Sequence record: PZ445427.1
DNA length: 64,000 nt
Strand: one strand, 5' to 3'
Source of the DNA: a phage
A model generated the notes under the pieces. It ran no database searches and was not told the DNA's origin. It saw only the letters and a list, made by a program, of their open reading frames with translations. The first letter of the stretch is position 1. Each line of letters opens with the position of its first letter. The position numbers were made by a program, and so were the translations under genes. Shown here piece after piece: positions 3,156 to 55,495 of the stretch.

Positions 3156-3908
3156 ATGGGAAAAGCACGTCAAAAAAGAGAGAACCGCAATGGTTCAAGA
3201 AAGCGTGGCAACAAGTACGAGAGTAACGTAATTCAAGCAGATTTCTCTGGTGATTACGCCAATCCAGTTGCTAAATCCCTAGTTGGTAAAAACCGTGAGC
3301 AAAAATCATATATCAATATGATCAAGAACAACACAGTGACTGTGGGTATTGGTGAACCAGGTACTGGTAAAACCTTTATTCCATCCGTTCTTGCAGCTCA
3401 GGAACTCGTAGACATTCACTCAGATATTGAGCAAGTGATCCTCGTGCGTCCGAACGAACCTCTAGGTAAATCTCTTGGTATGCTCCCAGGTGATCTGGCA
3501 GAAAAGCTAGAGCCTTGGTTGGAACCAATAGCCGATGGCATGAAATGGGCAATCGGTGATCACGCCTACAAAGGATATGTCGAACGTCAGAAAATTAAAT
3601 TCCTGGCTATCGAACATGCCCGTGGCCGAACTTTCAACAACTCCTATGTAATTGTCGATGAAGCTCAGAATATCTCCGTTGAAGCAATGATCTGTCTCTT
3701 GACTCGTGTAGGACAAGATTGTCGTTTAATTATCTGTGGGGATATAGCGCAGAAAGACATCAAGGGTGATTCAGGTCTAGCACTTCTTATGGAAGTCTAT
3801 GAGAAGTATGAAAACTCTCCTTTCTCTATGATCGAACTGATCGACAACGTTCGCTCACCAGAGTCTAAAGCATTCTACGATATCTTTAAGGATATGGGGA
3901 AGGTGTAA
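3156..3908 (+). CDS. phoH: PhoH-like ATPase
   Basis: Walker A GEPGTGKT, PhoH-like fold; likely start ATG 3156 after AGGAG (track start 3147 is GTG). Confidence 0.8.
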   Translation: MGKARQKRENRNGSRKRGNKYESNVIQADFSGDYANPVAKSLVGKNREQKSYINMIKNNTVTVGIGEPGTGKTFIPSVLAAQELVDIHSDIEQVILVRPNEPLGKSLGMLPGDLAEKLEPWLEPIADGMKWAIGDHAYKGYVERQKIKFLAIEHARGRTFNNSYVIVDEAQNISVEAMICLLTRVGQDCRLIICGDIAQKDIKGDSGLALLMEVYEKYENSPFSMIELIDNVRSPESKAFYDIFKDMGKV

Positions 3909-11844: not shown

Positions 11845-12546
11845 ATGAAATTCAAGCCCTTTGGTATGCTGGACATTGAATCTCTAGGTACTCCAGGAAA
11901 TTGCGGTACTACTCATATTGCAATGCCTTCTTTCGCTTTTGTAGCGATGCACGGAATTGATAAAGATCCTGATCTGGTATTCGTTACTCTAGACGTTCAA
12001 GATCAGCTTAATGCGGGTGCTAAGGTAACTGCCTCTACTATTGCATTCTGGATGGATCAAGCTAAAAACAGTCCATCTGCGCTCCATATTATGGAGGCTC
12101 TAAATGGTCGTAATCCTAAACTGATTGCCTTCCGTGATGGTAAGCATCACTGCACTAATGACGTAGGCTCTAATTATGCTGCCTTCTCTATGGCTCAGAA
12201 CATTATGGAATTGTCTCTAGGAGATAATGCTCTGTATTACGGCAATGGCCCAGAGTTTGATATGACAATCTACTCTGCAAATACGTTCCATGCCGGAACC
12301 CATGAAGAAATAGTTCCGTGGAAATTCTGGAACTTAGGTAACGTTCGATCTTTCCGTAATCAGTGGATGCAAGCTGGTTATAGCTATAAAGATCTAGAAG
12401 CCGAAGGTGCTAGCTGGGCAAAAGCTAAAATGGAAAAGATGGACACCATTCGTTATGGAATCTATCCTGTGAAGCATGATCCAGCATTCGATGCTTTAGT
12501 TGAAAGTTATTGTGTAGCCGTCATGATCGAAAAAATCAAAATTTGA
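11845..12546 (+). CDS. DEDDh-type 3'-5' exonuclease-like protein
   Basis: Exo I motif LDIES near N-terminus and Exo III motif HDPAFDA near C-terminus. Confidence 0.5.
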   Translation: MKFKPFGMLDIESLGTPGNCGTTHIAMPSFAFVAMHGIDKDPDLVFVTLDVQDQLNAGAKVTASTIAFWMDQAKNSPSALHIMEALNGRNPKLIAFRDGKHHCTNDVGSNYAAFSMAQNIMELSLGDNALYYGNGPEFDMTIYSANTFHAGTHEEIVPWKFWNLGNVRSFRNQWMQAGYSYKDLEAEGASWAKAKMEKMDTIRYGIYPVKHDPAFDALVESYCVAVMIEKIKI

Positions 12547-12853: not shown

Positions 12854-13492
12854 ATGACTACTCGTATCTCTAAAACTCGTGCTCTGGCAACTATCAAGTC
12901 TCTGGAAGCTAAAATCCGTAAAGCTACTGAACAACAGCTTTTGATTGCTGTTGGTGAAGGTAAAGACAAGAATCAAGTTGTCGTTGGTGCTGCAATCGAA
13001 GTAGATGCTCTGTCTACTCGTATTAAAACTGATTTCCAGTCTCTGCTGGATATGATGACCCAGCGTGATCATCTGAAAGCAGCGCTGATCAAGAGCAATG
13101 CTGAAACTGTTGTAGAGATCGGTTCCCGCTCTATGACTGTTGCGGAAGCAATCGAAGCTAAGCGTTCTATGGAACTCAAAGCTCAGTTGCTGGCTAACAT
13201 GCGTAAGCAGTTCCATGCTGCTACTGTTAAGTTTAACACTCAAAAGGCTCAGTTTGATGCCAAGTATGAGCGTTTGCAGGATACCATGGCTACCCGTGAC
13301 AAGAAGACTTCCGAGGATGAAGTTAAGATGCAGCTTAACCTGCTGGAACTCAAGAACACTCCGTTCCTGATCGATCCGCTGGAGCTGGAAAAGCTGATCA
13401 AGCAACACGACGAAGAGTACCAGGACTTTGCAACCAACGTTGACTTTGTTCTGTCTGAGTCCAACGCCTCTACTTTTATCGAAGTAGAGTAA
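12854..13492 (+). CDS. hypothetical protein (212 aa), highly expressed codon style
   Basis: TAAGGAAG RBS; antisense ORFs 12821..13408 and 13249..13464 are spurious. Confidence 0.6.
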   Translation: MTTRISKTRALATIKSLEAKIRKATEQQLLIAVGEGKDKNQVVVGAAIEVDALSTRIKTDFQSLLDMMTQRDHLKAALIKSNAETVVEIGSRSMTVAEAIEAKRSMELKAQLLANMRKQFHAATVKFNTQKAQFDAKYERLQDTMATRDKKTSEDEVKMQLNLLELKNTPFLIDPLELEKLIKQHDEEYQDFATNVDFVLSESNASTFIEVE

Positions 13493-13501
13493 TAATTTAA
13501 A

Positions 13502-13855
13502 AGACTAGTAAATCGGTAGACGAAAGCCCAAGCATCTTACCTCGCAGCAGCGGTTGAAATACGAGGTTAAATAAGACCGCTGACCATACTATAAAGTATA
13601 ATCTATTGGAGATTATGTTTATTACATCAGACATTTAATCTGACACGTAAAAACAAAAGGTCGTTGGTAGTACCAACACAACTTCAAAGATCAACGCTCA
13701 AGTATGAAAGCTGAAAAGTTAAAAGCACTCAAACTTCTAACCTTCTAAAGCTAAAAGATGCAAAGTATTCGTTGATGATTCAAACCCTAGATCAAAGGTA
13801 CATGGCTCATAAGATATGGCCTGTGGCGCCTCTAGGCTGTTTATCGGTTTACTAG
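13502..13855 (+). other. ORF-free structured region closed by long-range stem (candidate ncRNA or processed 3' UTR)
   Basis: agactagtaaatcgg at 13502.. pairs with ccggtttactagtct at about 13840..13855; no ORF of 60 aa or more and no tRNA motif inside. Confidence 0.3.
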
Positions 13856-13876
13856 TCTCTCAATTTAAAAATGTAT

Positions 13877-13905
13877 TTGCTAATTAGTTTAGTTTTCTAT
13901 ATAAT
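13877..13905 (+). promoter_or_regulatory. T5-type early promoter
   Basis: ttgcta 13877..13882, 17 bp, tataat 13900..13905. Confidence 0.6.
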
Positions 13906-13935
13906 ATATTTTTAAATTGATGAGACGAGGCTATT

Positions 13936-14253
13936 ATGATTTTTCATATTCTGATTGATGATGTGCGTAACCTTCATGGAATGGACATTATCATTCGAAC
14001 CCCCGAAGCCGCTGTTGAGTTTCTGAATAAAACCGATACCACAGGTCATTTCGTTTATATGGATAACGATCTGGCTGTAGATGGTATGGAAGGTTATCAA
14101 ATTCTTCGTTTACTCCTAGAATTTGGTCAGAGACCCAAGAAAGTGGTACTAGTAACCTCGAACCCAGTAGCTAAAGAGACCATGCGTAATGATCTCTTAG
14201 ACGAAGGGTATCAAGAAAGCCCTAATCGTATTGAGTACGATTGGCCGGAGTAA
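13936..14253 (+). CDS. CheY-like receiver-domain protein (orphan)
   Basis: ILIDDV acidic pocket, YMDNDLAVDGMEG around the putative phospho-Asp, VVLVTSNP; 105 aa. Confidence 0.4.
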   Translation: MIFHILIDDVRNLHGMDIIIRTPEAAVEFLNKTDTTGHFVYMDNDLAVDGMEGYQILRLLLEFGQRPKKVVLVTSNPVAKETMRNDLLDEGYQESPNRIEYDWPE

Positions 14254-15427: not shown

Positions 15428-16286
15428 AGATTCATAAATTAGAGAACAGCGAGCCGATTACGCTGAGTGAGTTTAGTGATTCCTACTAGGATAGCTATTC
15501 CACTGAATAGAGTCGGTGAGTTGGAGACTAGTAAGTACTCTGAGAGAGGCTACGAGCTAACGCTTATTGCTATTGATAGGGAACTGAAAATCTGCGGAAA
15601 ACTCGGGAGCTGTCCCGAAATCTCGTAAACTCTTCTCTAGTTTATGTTAGTGGGGTGTCGAACTGACTTATGTGATAACACTGCCGTCCTAGTATAAACG
15701 GTAATATCAAACCGTAACTGGTGGAAGATGCAGGTTCGAATCCTGCGGTCGGAAAGAATCAGATAACTCGGGCTTATACCGGATAAGCATTCGCTGCTGG
15801 AGTACATACTATGACGGTTCAGGAGGTACGCCACCTGATCAGTATTAGGTTAGAATCGAAACAGCTAAACCACGAGGAAACCTGACGGCCTCAACCAAAC
15901 TCGGAACTCGGGATCACTGCCTAGTGTGTGCCCCGTTTAACCTGAGACTAGGCATCCAGCTTCGCATCGAAAATCGGAGGTGCGATTCTAACAGACCGCG
16001 TGAATATGAGAGTGGGAAACGCTGACATGAGAGATGTCACTAATGGTGCCCAATAGTACAGGTAATTCGCGATAATTCCTGTTGAGCGGCAGCAGTAGGC
16101 TGGGAGTCATGACCTAAGCCTAACCGAGTTCTTCACATACGGAGAACATAACCACAAAGTCACCCTGACTTAAACTGGAAGATATTGTCTGACGGAAGGG
16201 CTGCAGAGCTTAATCTGAGGGGGCTGACCCTACCTACCGTCGGGTATCTTTAAGAGCTTTTATAAGAGTTCTTAAAAATACCTAAA

Positions 16287-16387: not shown

Positions 16388-16588
16388 GTGAAAACACGAT
16401 ATATAGTAAAAGTAGTAGGTGAACATTCACAAGTAAATACCACCGATGTTACAGCGCTAGCATTTGAAGTAGTCTCCGGTATAGTCATATTTCATAACGG
16501 AGATATCAAAGCTCCTGAATTTGCTGTGGATGCTAGCCTGTTTATTTCTGCAACTAAAGTAACTGTAGTAGCTAACTCTTCTAAATAA
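16388..16588 (+). CDS. hypothetical protein (66 aa, GTG start)
   Basis: AGGAAA RBS before GTG. Confidence 0.45.
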   Translation: MKTRYIVKVVGEHSQVNTTDVTALAFEVVSGIVIFHNGDIKAPEFAVDASLFISATKVTVVANSSK

Positions 16589-16599
16589 TAAGGAAATAT

Positions 16600-17544
16600 A
16601 TGTTTACTAAAAACACTAAAGAACTGACTTCCGATCAAAAAGTAATTCGTACTATTAAACGTTGGGGTGTTGGTGCTGTAGTTGGTCTTGGCGCTCTTAT
16701 TCTGGCTCTCAATTCCTACACAGTTGTTCAGGATGGTACTGTTAAGACTCAAACCTTCCTGGGTAAAGTTAGCCCGAACCCTGTACTGCCAGGCTTCCAT
16801 ATTGTTAACCCATTTGCTTCTTTTGATACTTTTAGTACGAAAGATATTTCTATGAAACTGGATAAACTTCAGGTTCCTAGCCAGGATAAGTTTAAGTCTA
16901 CTGTTGACATTACCGTTATGTTGCAGTTTGATGGTGCTAAAGCTCCTATGAACCGTGTTAACGCAGGTACTCAGGATCAGGCTCTGAACAAGTACGTTGA
17001 AGAGAAGATGCTATCTACGATTCGTGAGTTTGGTAAGTCTGTACCAAAAGCACAAGATCTGTTCGACGCTAAGATTCAGGCTCAACTGCAAACTGCTATT
17101 CAGCAAGAAGTAGAGGAGTATGCGCGTCCTTATGGTTACACCGTTAAGCAAGTATTCCTTCAGGATATTACTCTGCCACCGGTAATCATGGAACAGGTAC
17201 AGAACACCAAAGTTCGTGAAGAACAAGTTAACGCTGCAAAAGCTGAACTGGCTCGTGTTGAACAAGAAGCACAACAGAAAGTTAAGCAAGCTGAGGCAGA
17301 TCGTTCTGCTCGTGAAAACATGGCAGTAGCTAACGAACGTGACGCAGATGCTAAACTGTACGCAGCTAAGAAAGAAGCTGAAGCTAACGCCGCTCTGCAA
17401 CGTACCATTACTCCTGAAATGATTCGTTGGAAGCAGCTGGAAGTTGAAATGCTTCGTGCTGAAAAATACCAAGGTGGTGTACCGCAGACTGTTGTTGGTA
17501 CTGGCTATGATGGTCAAATGATCATGGATATGCGTAACAAGTAA
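16600..17544 (+). CDS. SPFH/band-7 (prohibitin/HflK-like) membrane protein
   Basis: N-terminal TM segment then SPFH-like core (VVQDGTVKTQTF, PGFH, DITV) and long coiled-coil tail. Confidence 0.6.
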   Translation: MFTKNTKELTSDQKVIRTIKRWGVGAVVGLGALILALNSYTVVQDGTVKTQTFLGKVSPNPVLPGFHIVNPFASFDTFSTKDISMKLDKLQVPSQDKFKSTVDITVMLQFDGAKAPMNRVNAGTQDQALNKYVEEKMLSTIREFGKSVPKAQDLFDAKIQAQLQTAIQQEVEEYARPYGYTVKQVFLQDITLPPVIMEQVQNTKVREEQVNAAKAELARVEQEAQQKVKQAEADRSARENMAVANERDADAKLYAAKKEAEANAALQRTITPEMIRWKQLEVEMLRAEKYQGGVPQTVVGTGYDGQMIMDMRNK

Positions 17545-23403: not shown

Positions 23404-23491
23404 GGGCGTTTATTCCGTAAGTGGTAGCGGAGGGGATTGTAAATCCCTGGTCATTGCGACTCGAGTGGTTCGACTCCATTAACGCCCACCA
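23404..23491 (+). tRNA. tRNA-Tyr(GTA)
   Basis: Acceptor gggcgtt/aacgccc, anticodon loop ttgtaaa, long variable arm, T-loop ttcgact, CCA. Confidence 0.75.
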
Positions 23492-28000: not shown

Positions 28001-28079
28001 GGGGAATGGGTCTGCATGGAGTGGACACCTCGCTTGCACCGAGGACATCAGAACGGTTCGATTCCGTTATTCTCCACCA
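28001..28079 (+). tRNA. tRNA-Ala(TGC)
   Basis: Acceptor ggggaat/attctcc with G3-U70, anticodon stem cctcg/cgagg loop cttgcac, T-arm aacgg-ttcgatt-ccgtt, CCA. Confidence 0.65.
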
Positions 28080-29577: not shown

Positions 29578-29654
29578 GTGGCTATATCATAATTGGTTAA
29601 TGATCCTGATTGTGAATCAGGCCTATGTGGATTCGAGTTCCACTAGCCACCCCA
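29578..29654 (+). tRNA. tRNA-His(GTG)
   Basis: Acceptor gtggcta/tagccac, anticodon stem cctga/tcagg loop ttgtgaa, T-arm gtgga-ttcgagt-tccac, CCA. Confidence 0.75.
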
Positions 29655-42852: not shown

Positions 42853-43442
42853 TGAAAGTTAAATTCTGGTCGGATTTGCACCTAGACCATCCTGGAACTC
42901 TTCGCTTCCGTCCGTGGTTTAAGAACATGAAAGAGCACGATGAATATATCCTAGATACTTTGTCCAAGCACATTGGCAAGCGTACAAAACTTGTATTGCT
43001 AGGAGATATTGCCGTGGGGCGTGAAGGGTTGGCTAAATTGAAGTCGGTTATCCACAATGTGCCTAACCAATTAATCATGGGCAACCACGATGCTGAACGT
43101 CAGGGTCTGCGTATTAAAGATCTTGTAGACGTTTATGATGATATTCAGGCTCTAGGTAAGCAAACAGGTGGTGGCAAGAAGTTTTGGCTGTCACACTGTC
43201 CATTGCACGAAGCAGAACTTCGTGGTAAGCTAAACATTCACGGACATGTGCACACCAATTCTGTGCGTGACCCACGTTATATCAACGTCTCTTTTGAGAT
43301 GAGCAAGACTCCTATTCCTCTAGAGGATATTGTGTCTGGCAAGTTCACAAGCTATGATAAAGTGGTTAACTGCACTACTGGTGAAATACTCCAAATCGAT
43401 GAAGATGTGGCGGCGGTATTGAGAGGAGATATCAATGTTTGA
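42852..43442 (+). CDS. metallophosphoesterase
   Basis: DLHLDH, GNHD, GHVH motifs. Confidence 0.7.
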   Translation: MKVKFWSDLHLDHPGTLRFRPWFKNMKEHDEYILDTLSKHIGKRTKLVLLGDIAVGREGLAKLKSVIHNVPNQLIMGNHDAERQGLRIKDLVDVYDDIQALGKQTGGGKKFWLSHCPLHEAELRGKLNIHGHVHTNSVRDPRYINVSFEMSKTPIPLEDIVSGKFTSYDKVVNCTTGEILQIDEDVAAVLRGDINV

Positions 43443-43537
43443 TTTTGATGGCATGGCTCGTGAGATATTTATAGCAATAGGTATAGTAGTTCTTATCTCT
43501 TTCTTTACGGGCCTAGGCTTAGGCCTTTTATTTTAAA
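43436..43537 (+). CDS. small hydrophobic peptide (33 aa)
   Basis: ATG overlapping upstream stop; single TM-like segment; below track cutoff. Confidence 0.25.
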
Positions 43538-49456: not shown

Positions 49457-49650
49457 TTCCTAGGATGGCACAACACTTTCTAGTAGACTCCTAAGTTTCT
49501 AGGAAAACTCACACCAACTCAGGCGGTTTTCATATTCCTAGAAACTCTAGCAATAGGCGGTTTAATACAGGGCGGTTATTTCTAGGAGACATTTTTCCAA
49601 AACACATTTCTGGAAATTGCTATCGGATTTGCACTCTGTGTTTCTAGAAA
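49457..49650. repeat. array of about 8 TTCTAG(G/A)A motifs with 3 interspersed (A/G)GGCGGTT motifs
   Basis: tcctagga 49459, ttctagta 49479, ttctagga 49498, tcctagaa 49536, ttctagga 49580, ttctggaa 49609, ttctagaa 49643; ggcggtt at 49522, 49556, 49571. Confidence 0.6.
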
Positions 49651-50222
49651 TTTATGGTCGGATTTGCACAATTGCCTAAGTTTTCATGAACACATACTCT
49701 CCTGAAAATAACAGCATTATTTCGGGCCGAAGGCCCATGATTGCCTGAGTTTTTAGAGCCACAGGAATTTTCACTTGTCAAGCTATTTTGCCCCATTTTG
49801 CTAATAAAATTTCGCATAATCTCGCCCCACGCCCAATTATCCCAAAACATCCCACATTATCCCCAAAAACGCAGCAAACTAGGCGTTGCACGCCCTTCCA
49901 GCTGCTACTTTCGTAGTTCCTCCCAAAATCTCATCGGATTCGCACTTCTCCCCAAACTCACACAATCACACACCCTCCAATCGAAGTCACAAAAATCTTG
50001 TCGGTTCTGCACACCTTAACACTTGTCGGATTTGCACATATTCTAGTAAATCCAGCTGGATTGCATCGCAGTTGCGGATTGCTGGAGTTTTTAGGAAAAT
50101 TCATTGTCGGATTCGCACACTGTAAAAATATTTCCCATCGGATTTGCACACTACCAAAAATTGTCGGATTCGCACATGCACGCTGGCACGTAATCCATGG
50201 TGGCAAATGTCGGATTTGCACA
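49622..50222. repeat. dispersed array of about 9 copies of GTCGGATT(T/C)GCACA
   Basis: Copies at about 49622, 49657, 49932, 50000, 50025, 50106, 50137, 50163, 50209 plus 2 degenerate copies near 50057..50085. Confidence 0.7.
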
Positions 50223-55180: not shown

Positions 55181-55206
55181 CTAGGGAACATCTTAAAGCC
55201 TATCGG
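55181..55206. repeat. 26-bp inverted repeat, left copy (partner 55468..55495)
   Basis: ctagggaacatcttaaagcctatcgg vs reverse complement of ccgataggttttaagatgttccccgtag; flanked by 12-bp direct repeat gctctttaaaaa at 55169 and 55501. Confidence 0.6.
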
Positions 55207-55240
55207 CGGTAAACTTATACATTATAAGGAATCGACGATA

Positions 55241-55459
55241 ATGATCAAATCAAAAAACGCTTTAGTGATTAGTGCAAAACCTGCTAGCCCACTGGATAGC
55301 AGAACAAAAAATTTGTTGACAGTAGCGCAACGATCTGTAAAATACAGATTCAAGCAATACAAGAAAGGCAAGCAACAAGGGCTGGAAATGGTGTGGCGTA
55401 ATATAATGATTGATTTATATAACTCACATCAAATCGAAAAAAGTTTAAAAAACGCTTGA
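55241..55459 (+). CDS. hypothetical basic protein (72 aa) bracketed by inverted repeats
   Basis: Track ORF; lies exactly between the 26-bp IR copies. Confidence 0.45.
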   Translation: MIKSKNALVISAKPASPLDSRTKNLLTVAQRSVKYRFKQYKKGKQQGLEMVWRNIMIDLYNSHQIEKSLKNA

Positions 55460-55484
55460 CACGCTAGCCGATAGGTTTTAAGAT
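55456..55484 (+). promoter_or_regulatory. candidate sigma70 promoter TTGACA-17-TAAGAT
   Basis: ttgaca 55456..55461 overlapping right IR copy. Confidence 0.4.
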
Positions 55485-55495
55485 GTTCCCCGTAG
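55468..55495. repeat. 26-bp inverted repeat, right copy
   Basis: See 55181..55206. Confidence 0.6.

What the first reader, a model, noticed from the sequence alone, without database searches (positions are those of the whole stretch)
13493..13860. 370-nt ORF-free segment closed by a long-range stem
After the stop at 13492 there is no ORF until the promoter at 13877. The segment begins agactagtaaatcgg and ends ccggtttactagtct, which can pair to close a roughly 350-nt domain; inside are further local hairpins. It would be co-transcribed with the upstream highly expressed gene and could be a processed stable RNA or an RNase III target.
Basis: seen in the sequence. Interest (0 to 1): 0.5.

Follow-up and report, generated by a model that had tools for sequence, protein, structure and literature searches.

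The report
Unannotated structured RNA family in T5
The 'empty' gap in this T5-like phage encodes a roughly 357-nt folded RNA that matches no known RNA family, always lies just after one small helical protein gene, and recurs in many large phages and Bacillota chromosomes, so it is probably a previously undescribed RNA-protein module of unknown function.

Summary
Window 13502-13522 pairs with 13838-13858 in a 21-bp stem, against at most 13 bp in 300 shuffles.

It is the closing helix (P1) of a conserved + strand RNA, 13502-13858. The RNA lies 3' of the T5.085 homologue (12854-13492) and before the T5.084 promoter.

The same architecture recurs in over 170 loci:
- P1
- a GAAAAC-type junction
- a second long-range helix (P2)
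- an H-type pseudoknot
- variable hairpins
- a largely unstructured A/U-rich tract of tandem UUYAAAG heptamers
- a helix (Pc) closing the 3' domain, followed by a GCUG motif

P1 and Pc covary strongly (0 of 500 shuffles reach the observed score). G.U pairs outnumber A.C 133 to 2, which fixes the strand.

Every RNA copy found follows a roughly 210-aa protein with a DIP1984/DUF6847-like fold of unknown function, and no other neighbour is conserved. The module occurs in Demerecviridae, Vequintavirinae, Herelleviridae, Lactococcus and Pseudomonas phages, and in Bacillota chromosomes.

No Rfam 15 family matches, the T5 reference record leaves the gap unannotated, and I found no paper on it.

Function is not shown. 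My best inference is a stable, end-protected RNA that displays a single-stranded heptamer array for a protein, most simply its gene neighbour. RNase III cleavage is untested.

The parts
12854..13492 (+). Partner gene: 212-aa T5.085 homologue (phrog_1491, often mis-annotated 'tail fiber protein'). It has a DIP1984/DUF6847-like helical fold of unknown function.
13502..13522 (+). P1 5' arm (AGACUAGUAAAUCGGUAGACG). The inner end is the family-wide C-G followed by G.U.
   Evidence: Family covariation is shown.
13523..13531 (+). Junction J1 (AAAGCCCAA). This is the counterpart of the family consensus GAAAAC that follows P1.
   Evidence: Family sequences.
13532..13538 (+). P2 5' strand (GCAUCUU), which pairs with 13755-13761.
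   Evidence: Constrained fold. Matched-versus-permuted partner test z = 6.1 on 111 sequences, with the compensatory variant UCAUCUU/AAGAUGA in L032 (the 120,938-bp contig).
13540..13582 (+). H-type pseudoknot. S1 is CCUCG 13540-13544 with CGAGG 13562-13566. S2 is CAGCGG 13548-13553 with CCGCUG 13577-13582.
   Evidence: Coordinates. The same topology sits at the same distance from P1, with unrelated sequences, across the family. S2 permutation test z = 11.6 on 126 sequences.
13598..13677 (+). Lineage-specific hairpins H1 (13598-13616), H2 (13627-13643) and H3 (13663-13677). This is the most variable part within T5-like phages.
   Evidence: In T5-like phages one H2 pair changes from A-U to C-G. 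Diversity here is pi 0.05-0.13, against about 0.01 in the outer thirds. In L039 the equivalent region holds a whole tRNA-Thr gene.
13682..13766 (+). A/U-rich tract of tandem heptamers with consensus UUYAAAG. It is predicted to be largely unpaired. It contains the P2 3' strand AAGAUGC at 13755-13761.
   Evidence: Lag-7 autocorrelation is 0.47 in the window. The family means are 0.45 at lag 7 and 0.43 at lag 14, against 0.23-0.26 off-phase. Heptamer weight matrix. The tract folds no better than shuffles, mean z = -0.48, whereas the 5' part gives -2.09.
13772..13785 (+). Linker UUGAUGAUUCAAAC, the counterpart of the family motif UCGAUAAAAUCC that leads into helix Pc.
   Evidence: Alignments A2 and A3.
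13786..13836 (+). 3' domain. Helix Pc (CCUAG 13786-13790 with CUAGG 13832-13836) encloses a hairpin (13800-13824) with a 12-nt loop.
   Evidence: Covariance model R1 hits 13774-13842 at 42.8 bits, E = 6e-8, and this is the only hit in the 64-kb window. Pc covariation: 98.1% and 99.7% of cells paired, with 0 of 500 shuffles reaching the observed score.
13838..13858 (+). P1 3' arm (UGUUUAUCGGUUUACUAGUCU), preceded by the conserved GGC of the GGCUG motif.
13877..13905 (+). Downstream boundary, not part of the RNA: the sigma-70-like early promoter of the next gene (T5.084 homologue, 13936-14253).
   Evidence: A promoter is annotated at the equivalent place in T5 record AY543070.

Best explanation
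Window 13502-13858 (+ strand) encodes a member of a widespread, so far uncatalogued family of structured RNAs, about 255-430 nt long.

Shown by the evidence:
- The RNA lies at the 3' end of the transcript of the adjacent gene for a roughly 210-aa protein with a DIP1984/DUF6847-like fold.
- Its two ends are locked in a long helix, P1.
- A second long-range helix (P2), an H-type pseudoknot and a small 3' domain (Pc plus a hairpin) form a conserved core.
- From this core emerges a roughly 85-nt, largely unpaired A/U-rich tract of about 6-14 tandem UUYAAAG heptamers.

Inferred, not shown:
- P1 protects or defines the ends of a stable RNA. The RNA would be released by processing in T5, and by a terminator or by processing of the neighbouring tRNA in relatives.
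- The structured core acts as a scaffold that presents the heptamer array as multiple equivalent binding sites for a single-strand-specific protein.
- The most parsimonious partner is the product of the always-adjacent gene, giving an RNA-protein particle. A conserved host factor that the RNA titrates is the alternative.

The downstream biological role is unknown. An RNA-metabolism or translation role is a guess from the frequent tRNA-cluster context.
For: The structure is real and acts at the RNA level.
- P1 is 21 bp here, against at most 13 bp in 300 shuffles.
- Across 48 distinct family members, the inner 11 pairs of P1 are 98.7% paired. There are 212 double-change cells against 63.8 +/- 6.5 in shuffles. 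The covariation score is 1.06 against 0.22, reached by 0 of 500 shuffles. Slid controls pair only 29-49%.
- Pc is 98.1% paired in 43 phage sequences and 99.7% in 76 bacterial sequences, again with 0 of 500 shuffles.
- The pseudoknot S2 and helix P2 both beat permuted-partner controls, with z = 11.6 and 6.1.

The strand is +.
- P1 holds 133 G.U pairs against 2 A.C pairs, and the inner G.U is invariant in 56 of 57 sequences.
- + strand terminators or tRNA genes follow the RNA directly in 42 and 18 of 121 loci.

The element is under purifying selection. In 32 T5-like sequences its outer thirds have pi 0.005-0.013, against 0.05-0.15 in the flanking coding sequence. The gap alone is also more conserved than the gap plus flanks across about 438 phage records.

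The heptamer tract is periodic and unstructured.
- Lag-7 and lag-14 autocorrelations are 0.45 and 0.43.
- The weight matrix reads UUYAAAG.
- The tract folds no better than shuffles.

The RNA and the protein gene are linked.
- Model R1 finds exactly one + strand hit 200-350 nt after the gene in 47 of 52 phage sources and in 75 of 80 bacterial loci.
- In a scan of IMG/VR that started from an RNA pattern, all loci with an 11-bp or longer P1 had the protein gene upstream, and chance pattern hits had neither.
- None of the T5 neighbour genes tested is co-conserved, and no neighbour recurs across bacterial genera.
Against: - No expression, end-mapping or binding data were available. A discrete RNA species and any protein binding are therefore inferences.
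- The partner protein is mildly acidic, with median pI 6.0, and has no recognised RNA-binding domain. Its only structural relative, 3kdq, has no known function.
- Single-sequence folding pairs parts of the T5 tract, so 'single-stranded' rests on family-level statistics.
- The sequences used for the P1 count were selected for having a P1, so the percentage paired is partly circular. The diversity of pair types and the independent duplex search in loci chosen by model R1 are not circular.
- The pseudoknot is weak in per-sequence shuffle tests, with mean z = 1.7.
Confidence: 0.5

Rival explanations
1. Cis-acting 3' UTR. The structure acts only on the mRNA of the upstream gene, for example as a 3' exonuclease block or an autoregulatory operator for its own protein, and has no function in trans.
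For: The RNA is always on the same strand and 8-60 nt after the stop codon of the same gene. No terminator separates them in the window. A terminator often follows the RNA, so it forms the 3' end of that transcript.
Against: A 255-430-nt element with two long-range helices, a pseudoknot, conserved junction nucleotides and a heptamer array is far more elaborate than known 3' stabilisers. In L039 a tRNA gene sits inside it, so tRNA processing would sever it from the mRNA. In T5-like phages the element is more conserved than the gene it would serve. This rival is not exclusive with the RNA-protein particle model.
Confidence: 0.2
2. Processing signal only. P1 is an RNase III site, as in T7 early transcripts or rRNA precursors, that separates the upstream mRNA from downstream transcripts. 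The interior is incidental.
For: The P1 duplex is 21 bp in the window, which is long enough for RNase III by established knowledge. The element lies between two transcription units.
Against: P1 is only 11-15 bp in many members. The interior is the conserved part, including the Pc domain, J1, pseudoknot, P2 and heptamers. Bacterial chromosomal copies ending in a terminator have no need for such a site.
Confidence: 0.08
3. A degenerate or divergent known RNA, such as a tmRNA-like, tRNA-like, RNase P-like or Y RNA-like molecule, that standard models fail to recognise.
For: The size and outline resemble tmRNA: paired ends, a 5' pseudoknot, then an A-rich single strand. The element is often embedded in tRNA gene clusters. 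The motif UUCGAUAAAAUCC, or GUUCGAAUCC in L033, recalls a T-loop.
Against: ARAGORN finds no tmRNA or tRNA in the gap. Rfam 15 gives no hit even at E <= 10 in the window, or at E <= 1 in 27 related loci. There is no T-arm, CCA end or tag reading frame, and a 7-nt period is incompatible with coding. Local resemblances to RNase P CR-I and CR-V are not conserved in the family.
Confidence: 0.03
4. A DNA-level element, such as an inverted-repeat-bounded mobile remnant, a replication origin or iterons, or simply a chance inverted repeat.
For: Inverted repeats bound the segment, and heptamer direct repeats could in principle be protein-binding iterons. Both strands fold well.
Against: The 133 to 2 excess of G.U over A.C pairs is meaningful only for + strand RNA. 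The arms covary rather than being conserved in sequence. There is one copy per genome at a fixed place relative to one gene, and no other copy in the window. Chance is excluded.
Confidence: 0.02

Closest known systems
tmRNA (SsrA)
   Same: It has a similar size of about 350 nt, with the 5' and 3' ends paired. An H-type pseudoknot near the 5' side is followed by an A-rich, largely single-stranded stretch and then a structured 3' part. tmRNA is also found in phages that carry tRNA sets.
   Different: This RNA has no tRNA-like domain: no 7-bp acceptor stem with G3.U70, no T-arm and no CCA. It has no resume codon or tag ORF, because the single strand is a 7-nt repeat. ARAGORN and Rfam give no hit. 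The linked protein is a helical DUF6847-like protein, not SmpB.
Phage T4 gene 32 mRNA translational operator (own knowledge; the pseudoknot is mentioned in PMC10690425)
   Same: A pseudoknot is combined with an unstructured A/U-rich run of UUAAA/UAAA-type repeats. In T4 that run is coated cooperatively by a single-strand-binding protein whose site size is about 7 nt, the same period as here. The RNA is encoded next to the gene of the protein.
   Different: The T4 operator is a short 5' leader. This element is 3' of the gene and 255-430 nt long. It is closed by two long-range helices, and variable hairpins separate its pseudoknot from the tract. The partner protein has no OB fold, and its binding is untested.
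Protein-sponge small RNAs (CsrB/RsmZ for CsrA, CrcZ for Hfq/Crc)
   Same: Many copies of a short motif are displayed on one stable RNA, which suggests titration or multimeric binding.
   Different: The motif here is UUYAAAG in a strict tandem 7-nt register. It is not GGA in hairpin loops or AANAANAA. The family also occurs in hosts that, to my knowledge, lack CsrA or Hfq, such as Lactococcus. It is encoded with a dedicated protein gene.
Y RNA / YrlA with Ro60 (Rsr)
   Same: The RNA ends pair in a long stem. The RNA is encoded beside its partner protein gene, and it occurs in bacteria and phages in RNA-repair or tRNA neighbourhoods. Here a cREC_REC protein and an exoribonuclease flank the module.
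   Different: No Ro/TROVE protein is present. There is no YrlA or Y_RNA Rfam hit in the element. This RNA is three times larger, and the architecture differs.
Large phage-associated structured RNAs of unknown function (ROOL, GOLLD; also skipping-rope)
   Same: These are large, covariation-supported RNAs found in phages and Bacillota, often near tRNA genes, with unknown function. A skipping-rope RNA lies right next to one bacterial copy.
   Different: None of the Rfam models for these families matches. This RNA is smaller, contains a low-complexity heptamer tract and has an obligate protein-gene neighbour.
Type III toxin-antitoxin RNAs (ToxI and relatives)
   Same: A repetitive RNA is encoded adjacent to a single protein gene, and such systems are also found on phages.
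   Different: ToxI repeats are 34-36 nt, lie upstream of the toxin gene and are cut by the toxin endoRNase. Here the repeats are 7 nt, lie downstream of the gene and are embedded in a large folded RNA. The protein fold is unrelated to ToxN, and PADLOC was not searched.

Membership tests
tmRNA | A tRNA-like domain with acceptor stem, T-arm and 3' CCA, detectable by ARAGORN or Rfam | tested here: not met
   ARAGORN finds 29 tRNAs and no tmRNA in the window, and nothing in 13493-13877. There is no tmRNA-clan Rfam hit at E <= 10. The 3' end is a 21-bp helix arm with no T-arm or CCA.
tmRNA | An mRNA-like tag reading frame with resume codon and stop | tested here: not met
   The single-stranded part is a 7-nt tandem repeat. 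The only micro-ORF, MKAEKLKALKLLTF from the ATG at 13704, shows three changes between the window and T5, and all three alter the amino acid.
Bacterial RNase P RNA | Conserved CR-I and CR-V forming P4; a match to Rfam RF00010, RF00011 or RF00373 | tested here: not met
   There is no Rfam hit at E <= 10. The local resemblances, GACGAAAGCCC and GGCUGUUUAUCGG, are not conserved in family members.
Any Rfam 15 family (4227 models) | A covariance-model match at or near the gathering score | tested here: not met
   Only tRNAs were found at gathering score in the window. In the element at E <= 10 the only hits are three weak microRNA-precursor matches over the promoter palindrome. Nothing was found in the gap of 12 phage loci or 15 bacterial loci at E <= 1.
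Y RNA / YrlA-Ro RNP | An adjacent Ro60 (TROVE) gene and a YrlA-type RNA | tested here: not met
   The adjacent protein has a DIP1984-like helical fold. There is no YrlA hit in the element.
RNase III substrate | A near-perfect dsRNA of about two helical turns (about 20 bp) or more; cleavage that depends on rnc | tested here: inconclusive
   P1 is 21 bp in the window. It is 11-23 bp in the 57 measured elements, with a median of about 15, and up to about 24 bp in other loci. Cleavage itself cannot be tested with these tools.
Evolutionarily conserved structured RNA (generic criterion) | Compensatory base changes that maintain helices across homologues, with a strand-specific G.U signature | tested here: met
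   P1, Pc, pseudoknot S2 and P2. G.U pairs outnumber A.C 133 to 2.
DIP1984 / DUF6847 protein family (for the partner protein) | A match to PF20935 above threshold, or a shared fold with PDB 3kdq | tested here: inconclusive
Type III toxin-antitoxin | Tandem repeats of about 36 nt upstream of a ToxN/AbiQ-fold endoRNase gene | tested here: not met
   The repeats are 7 nt and lie downstream of the gene. The protein fold is a helical bundle.

The most novel reading that the evidence does not exclude
The T5.085-family protein and this heptad-repeat RNA form a previously unrecognised ribonucleoprotein shared by Bacillota cells and many families of large virulent phages. The folded core would anchor the particle, and the UUYAAAG array would bind multiple protein copies or capture a universal single-strand-binding or translation/tRNA-related factor. 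That would be a new class of RNA-protein machine, sitting unannotated in a classic model phage.
Probability: 0.35. Interest if true: 0.85.

Novelty: categorically new. Interest (0 to 1): 0.78.

Why it matters
T5 has been studied for about 70 years, yet this 357-nt element is more conserved than the genes around it and remains unannotated.

The analysis turns a single inverted repeat into a testable object:
- a defined RNA family with mapped helices
- a dedicated partner gene, belonging to a protein family of about 3,400 cluster representatives at 50% identity
- a distribution spanning Gram-negative and Gram-positive phages and bacterial chromosomes

Large structured RNAs with conserved tertiary cores have in the past turned out to be ribozymes, RNA-protein scaffolds or regulators. 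A new one with a genetic handle in T5 and E. coli, and in culturable Lysinibacillus and Bacillus, is directly open to experiment.

It also corrects a widespread mis-annotation, 'tail fiber protein', and explains recurrent 300-550-nt 'empty' gaps in many phage genomes.

Tried and rejected
- **RNase P-like reading.** GACGAAAGCCC, CAUAAGAUAUGGCC and GGCUGUUUAUCGG resemble M1 RNA segments from memory. I rejected this because Rfam gives no hit and the motifs are not conserved in the family.
- **tmRNA-like reading.** Rejected; see the membership test.
- **Coding.**
  - The 45-aa minus-strand ORF and the 27-aa + strand ORF were not examined further.
  - The 14-codon micro-ORF in the tract shows only amino-acid-changing differences between the window and T5.
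  - Rejected on the RNA-level covariation, the 7-nt periodicity, and the absence of any consistent gene annotation there in the related records inspected.
- **Minus-strand RNA.** The minus strand folds slightly better as a single sequence, and a terminator-like hairpin lies on it at 13678-13662. Rejected on the G.U to A.C ratio and the downstream + strand terminators and tRNAs.
- **A tertiary pairing between the 12-13-nt loop of the 3' hairpin (..UAAUUG) and UCGAU of the linker.** Inspection of variants (UAGAU, UCUUUU) showed no compensation, so I dropped it.
- **Heptamers as T-loop (UUCRANY) or anticodon-loop (YU-YAA-AN) mimics.** The weight matrix fits only partly, with C at position 3 in 49% of sites and G at position 7. 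I keep these as leads only.
- **Per-sequence pseudoknot shuffle test.** It was weak, with mean z = 1.7, so I replaced it with permuted-partner tests.
- **Conserved neighbours as functional hints.** None were found in phages or bacteria.
- **Literature.** I found nothing on T5.085, no T5 non-coding RNA at this place, and no functional work on DUF6847, DIP1984 or septicolysin. The catalogue of 10,006 candidate viral structured RNAs (PMC10690425) does not discuss it, and I did not check its supplementary tables. One 2026 preprint on co-evolutionary mining of non-coding elements could not be opened.
Full report
**1. What is in the window**

The window is a T5-like phage. Positions 13300-14000 are 100% identical to Escherichia phage TrudiRoth (Epseptimavirus) and match 438 phage records at 90% identity or more.

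The finding lies between two genes:
- Upstream is a 212-aa ORF (12854-13492), the homologue of T5.085.
- Downstream is a sigma-70-like promoter (13877-13905) that drives a 105-aa cREC_REC-domain gene (13936-14253), the homologue of T5.084.

In the T5 reference record AY543070 the equivalent 363-nt gap (43,142-43,504) carries no feature. The other records I inspected have nothing consistent there.

**2. Checking the observation**

Positions 13502-13522 pair without gaps with 13838-13858, giving 21 bp that include four G.U pairs.

In 300 dinucleotide shuffles the longest comparable stem averaged 9.4 bp, with a maximum of 13. The segment folds with z = -5.6 on the + strand and -6.5 on the minus strand. 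No Rfam 15 family matches, even at E <= 10.

**3. Conservation in close relatives**

In 32 T5-like sequences the outer thirds of the gap (13494-13613 and 13734-13853) have nucleotide diversity 0.005-0.013. The flanking coding sequences show 0.05-0.15, and the middle of the gap shows 0.05-0.13.

The same pattern appears across about 438 GenBank records, where the gap alone is more conserved than the gap plus flanks. Two local changes keep pairing intact:
- The outer end of P1 changes from AGA/UCU to AAG/UUU through an indel plus a C-to-U change.
- One pair of hairpin H2 changes from A-U to C-G.

**4. A family appears in distant relatives**

I fetched loci that encode relatives of the 212-aa protein from IMG/VR, at 29-42% identity. 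Most of them also have a 300-750-nt ORF-poor gap after the gene.

A profile of the T5 gap finds weak + strand matches at the same relative position in 11 of them. Reading those gaps revealed a common architecture, from 5' to 3':
- a long-range stem P1 that ends ...C-G on its 5' arm and is followed by GAAAAC
- an ACUUA-type segment
- an H-type pseudoknot
- variable hairpins
- an A/U-rich repetitive tract
- the motif UCGAUAAAAUCC
- a 5-bp helix (Pc) enclosing a hairpin with a 12-13-nt loop
- GGCUG, whose U and G begin the 3' arm of P1

**5. Tests of each helix**

*P1.* In 48 distinct sequences the inner 11 pairs are 98.7% paired. Nine of the 11 pairs show double changes. There are 212 double-change cells against 63.8 +/- 6.5 in shuffles. 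The covariation score is 1.06 against 0.22, reached by 0 of 500 shuffles, and slid controls pair only 29-49%.

These sequences were chosen for having a P1, so the percentage paired is partly circular. The diversity of pair types is not circular. An independent duplex search in loci picked only by the 3'-domain model also found P1 in essentially all of them.

*Pc.* Pc is 98.1% paired in 43 phage sequences and 99.7% in 76 bacterial sequences. No shuffle out of 500 reached the observed score in either set, and the slid controls are low.

*Pseudoknot.* The same topology begins 15-20 nt after P1 with unrelated sequences in most members. The loop of S1 is more complementary to its own 3' flank than to those of other members, with z = 11.6 on 126 sequences.

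*P2.* A second long-range helix joins the segment before the pseudoknot to a segment near the end of the tract. Examples are GCAUCUU/AAGAUGC in the window, UCAUCUU/AAGAUGA in L032, AGACUUA/UAAGUCU and CUAAACG/CGUUUAG. The permuted-partner test gives z = 6.1.

**6. Strand and transcript context**

P1 contains 133 G.U pairs against 2 A.C pairs, and its inner G.U is present in 56 of 57 sequences. That pattern is expected only for + strand RNA.

Directly downstream on the + strand, 42 of 121 loci have an intrinsic-terminator-like hairpin and 18 have a tRNA gene. In the window no terminator-like site separates the gene from the RNA. The RNA is therefore the 3' part of the gene's transcript. In T5 it ends just before the next promoter.

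**7. The repetitive tract**

The roughly 90 nt before the 3' domain show autocorrelation peaks at lag 7 (0.45) and lag 14 (0.43), against 0.23-0.26 off-phase. The window alone gives 0.47 at lag 7, and bacterial copies reach 0.58.

The unit is U(0.52) U(0.89) C/U(0.85) A(1.0) A(0.92) A(0.70) G(0.59). That matrix counts about 6 strict matches per RNA, and by eye there are 8-14 units.

The tract is 39% A and 33% U. It folds no better than shuffles (mean z = -0.48), whereas the 5' part does (mean z = -2.09). A 7-nt period rules out coding.

**8. Linkage to the protein, and distribution**

A covariance model of the 3' domain (R1) finds exactly one + strand hit, 200-350 nt after the gene, in 47 of 52 phage sources. 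It finds only one hit in the whole 64-kb window, at 13774-13842.

I also searched IMG/VR from the RNA side with the pattern TCGATAAAATCC-N45-65-GGCTG. This split the results into two groups. About 45 loci had a P1 of 11 bp or more, and all of them had the protein gene upstream (E from 1e-10 to 1e-70). The remaining pattern matches, at roughly the number expected by chance, had neither feature, apart from three loci with the gene where my strict P1 search failed.

None of the T5 neighbour genes tested is co-conserved. Named phages with the RNA are:
- Lactococcus phage phiL47
- Bacillus phage BCP78 (Herelleviridae)
- Klebsiella phage KB57 (Vequintavirinae)
- Pseudomonas phage PN09 (Otagovirus)

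In each of these it lies in an unannotated 400-550-nt gap. L032, a 120,938-bp contig, has the same length as Escherichia phage Av-05, which also carries the gene, so it may be that phage.

The module is also chromosomal in Bacillota, including Lysinibacillus, Solibacillus, Brevibacillus, Paenibacillus and Clostridium. There, 75 of 80 loci have an R1 hit after the gene. In a complete Lysinibacillus chromosome the neighbour is an MFS-type membrane transporter by my reading of its sequence, not prophage genes. The bacterial copies have the same P1, GAAAAC, pseudoknot and heptamer organisation. No neighbour recurs across bacterial genera.

The protein family has 3,363 representatives at 50% identity with E <= 1e-3, nearly all 200-217 aa long.

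**9. The protein**

Sequence-level links to PF20935 (DUF6847) are marginal. No Pfam or NCBIfam family fits. The 'tail fiber' label comes from phrog_1491, and an early-region gene is an unlikely tail fibre. The median pI is 6.0.

**10. Mechanism**

The evidence shows a conserved, + strand, multi-helix RNA with a periodic and largely unpaired tract, genetically coupled to one protein.

The rest is inference:
- P1 sequesters and defines the ends of a stable RNA.
- The core acts as a scaffold.
- The heptamer array offers repeated binding sites for a single-strand-specific protein, either the gene neighbour or a conserved host factor.

I put about 0.95 on 'functional structured RNA family', about 0.35 on the particle or display mechanism, and 0.5 on the combined statement.

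The rivals, a purely cis-acting 3' UTR, an RNase III site only, a diverged known RNA, and a DNA-level element, are weighed in their own section. The closest functional analogy is the T4 gene 32 operator, which combines a pseudoknot with UUAAA-type repeats coated at about 7 nt per protomer (own knowledge). The closest outline is tmRNA. Membership in both is excluded.

**11. Novelty and caveats**

No Rfam 15 model matches in the window or in 27 related loci. The literature search found nothing.

I could not inspect the supplementary families of the catalogue of 10,006 candidate viral structured RNAs, and one 2026 preprint would not open. Fragments of this RNA may therefore sit unnamed in a catalogue. 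No expression or binding data were available, so function remains inference.

Noticed in passing
window 13860-13877 and 13903-13920: An 18-nt inverted repeat, 94% complementary (TCAATTTAAAAATGTATT / AATATATTTTTAAATTGA), brackets the -35 and -10 hexamers of the T5.084 promoter at 13877-13905. It could be an operator or a hairpin that affects this early promoter. It is also what produced the weak microRNA-precursor Rfam matches.
   Followed up: no
window 55184-55207 with 55467-55490; 49535-49554 with 50078-50097; 16448-16465 with 16665-16682: The window contains other unusually long long-range gapless stems of 24, 20 and 18 bp. The 24-bp pair encloses a 72-aa ORF at 55241-55459. The 20-bp pair lies in a stretch with only short overlapping ORFs. 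By my offset mapping, which I did not verify, that stretch falls beside a roughly 1.1-kb unannotated gap in TrudiRoth, a few kb from the A2 gene.
   Followed up: partly
window 11845-12546 and 13936-14253: The module is flanked by an Rv2179c-like 3'-5' exoribonuclease domain protein (PF16473) and a cREC_REC 'cyclic-phosphate processing receiver' domain protein (PF20274). A 29-gene tRNA array starts about 2.4 kb downstream. This is an RNA-metabolism neighbourhood, but these neighbours are not conserved with the module in other phages.
   Followed up: partly
L039 (IMGVR_UViG_3300020577_001702) 3229-3305: A complete tRNA-Thr(UGU) gene sits inside the RNA, between the pseudoknot and the heptamer tract. 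After tRNA processing this member would be a two-piece RNA held together by P1 and P2.
   Followed up: partly
L206 (Paenibacillus xylaniclasticus NZ_BIML01000001) 2519-2647: A skipping-rope RNA (RF02924, 54 bits) lies about 90 nt after the 3' domain of the new RNA. Two orphan structured RNAs sit side by side.
   Followed up: no
L251 (uncultured Parabacteroides MAG) 2328-2399 and 2690-2757: There are two hits of the 3'-domain model in tandem downstream of one protein gene. This may be a duplicated RNA.
   Followed up: no
many phage records, e.g. NC_018860 BCP78_0227, NC_023574 T548_0109, NC_028659 KB57_082: The partner protein is widely annotated as 'tail fiber protein' through phrog_1491. In T5-like phages it is an early-region gene, and its fold is a DIP1984-like helical bundle. 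The label is probably a propagated error.
   Followed up: partly
L059 912-1188: A group I intron (RF00028, 64.8 bits) lies about 1.3 kb upstream of the module in an uncultured phage contig.
   Followed up: no
L003 (Escherichia phage JLBYU43) 1965-2786: In some T5-like phages (JLBYU43, and also L007 and L009) the 105-aa cREC gene downstream of the RNA is replaced by a 273-aa ORF that JLBYU43 annotates as a putative HNH endonuclease. The RNA and its boundary stay intact.
   Followed up: no
window 15683-15754: A borderline tRNA call by Rfam (29.3 bits against a cut-off of 29) is not reported by ARAGORN. Conversely, ARAGORN reports tRNAs at 23404-23491, 28001-28079 and 29578-29654 that are missing from the Rfam list.
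   Followed up: no
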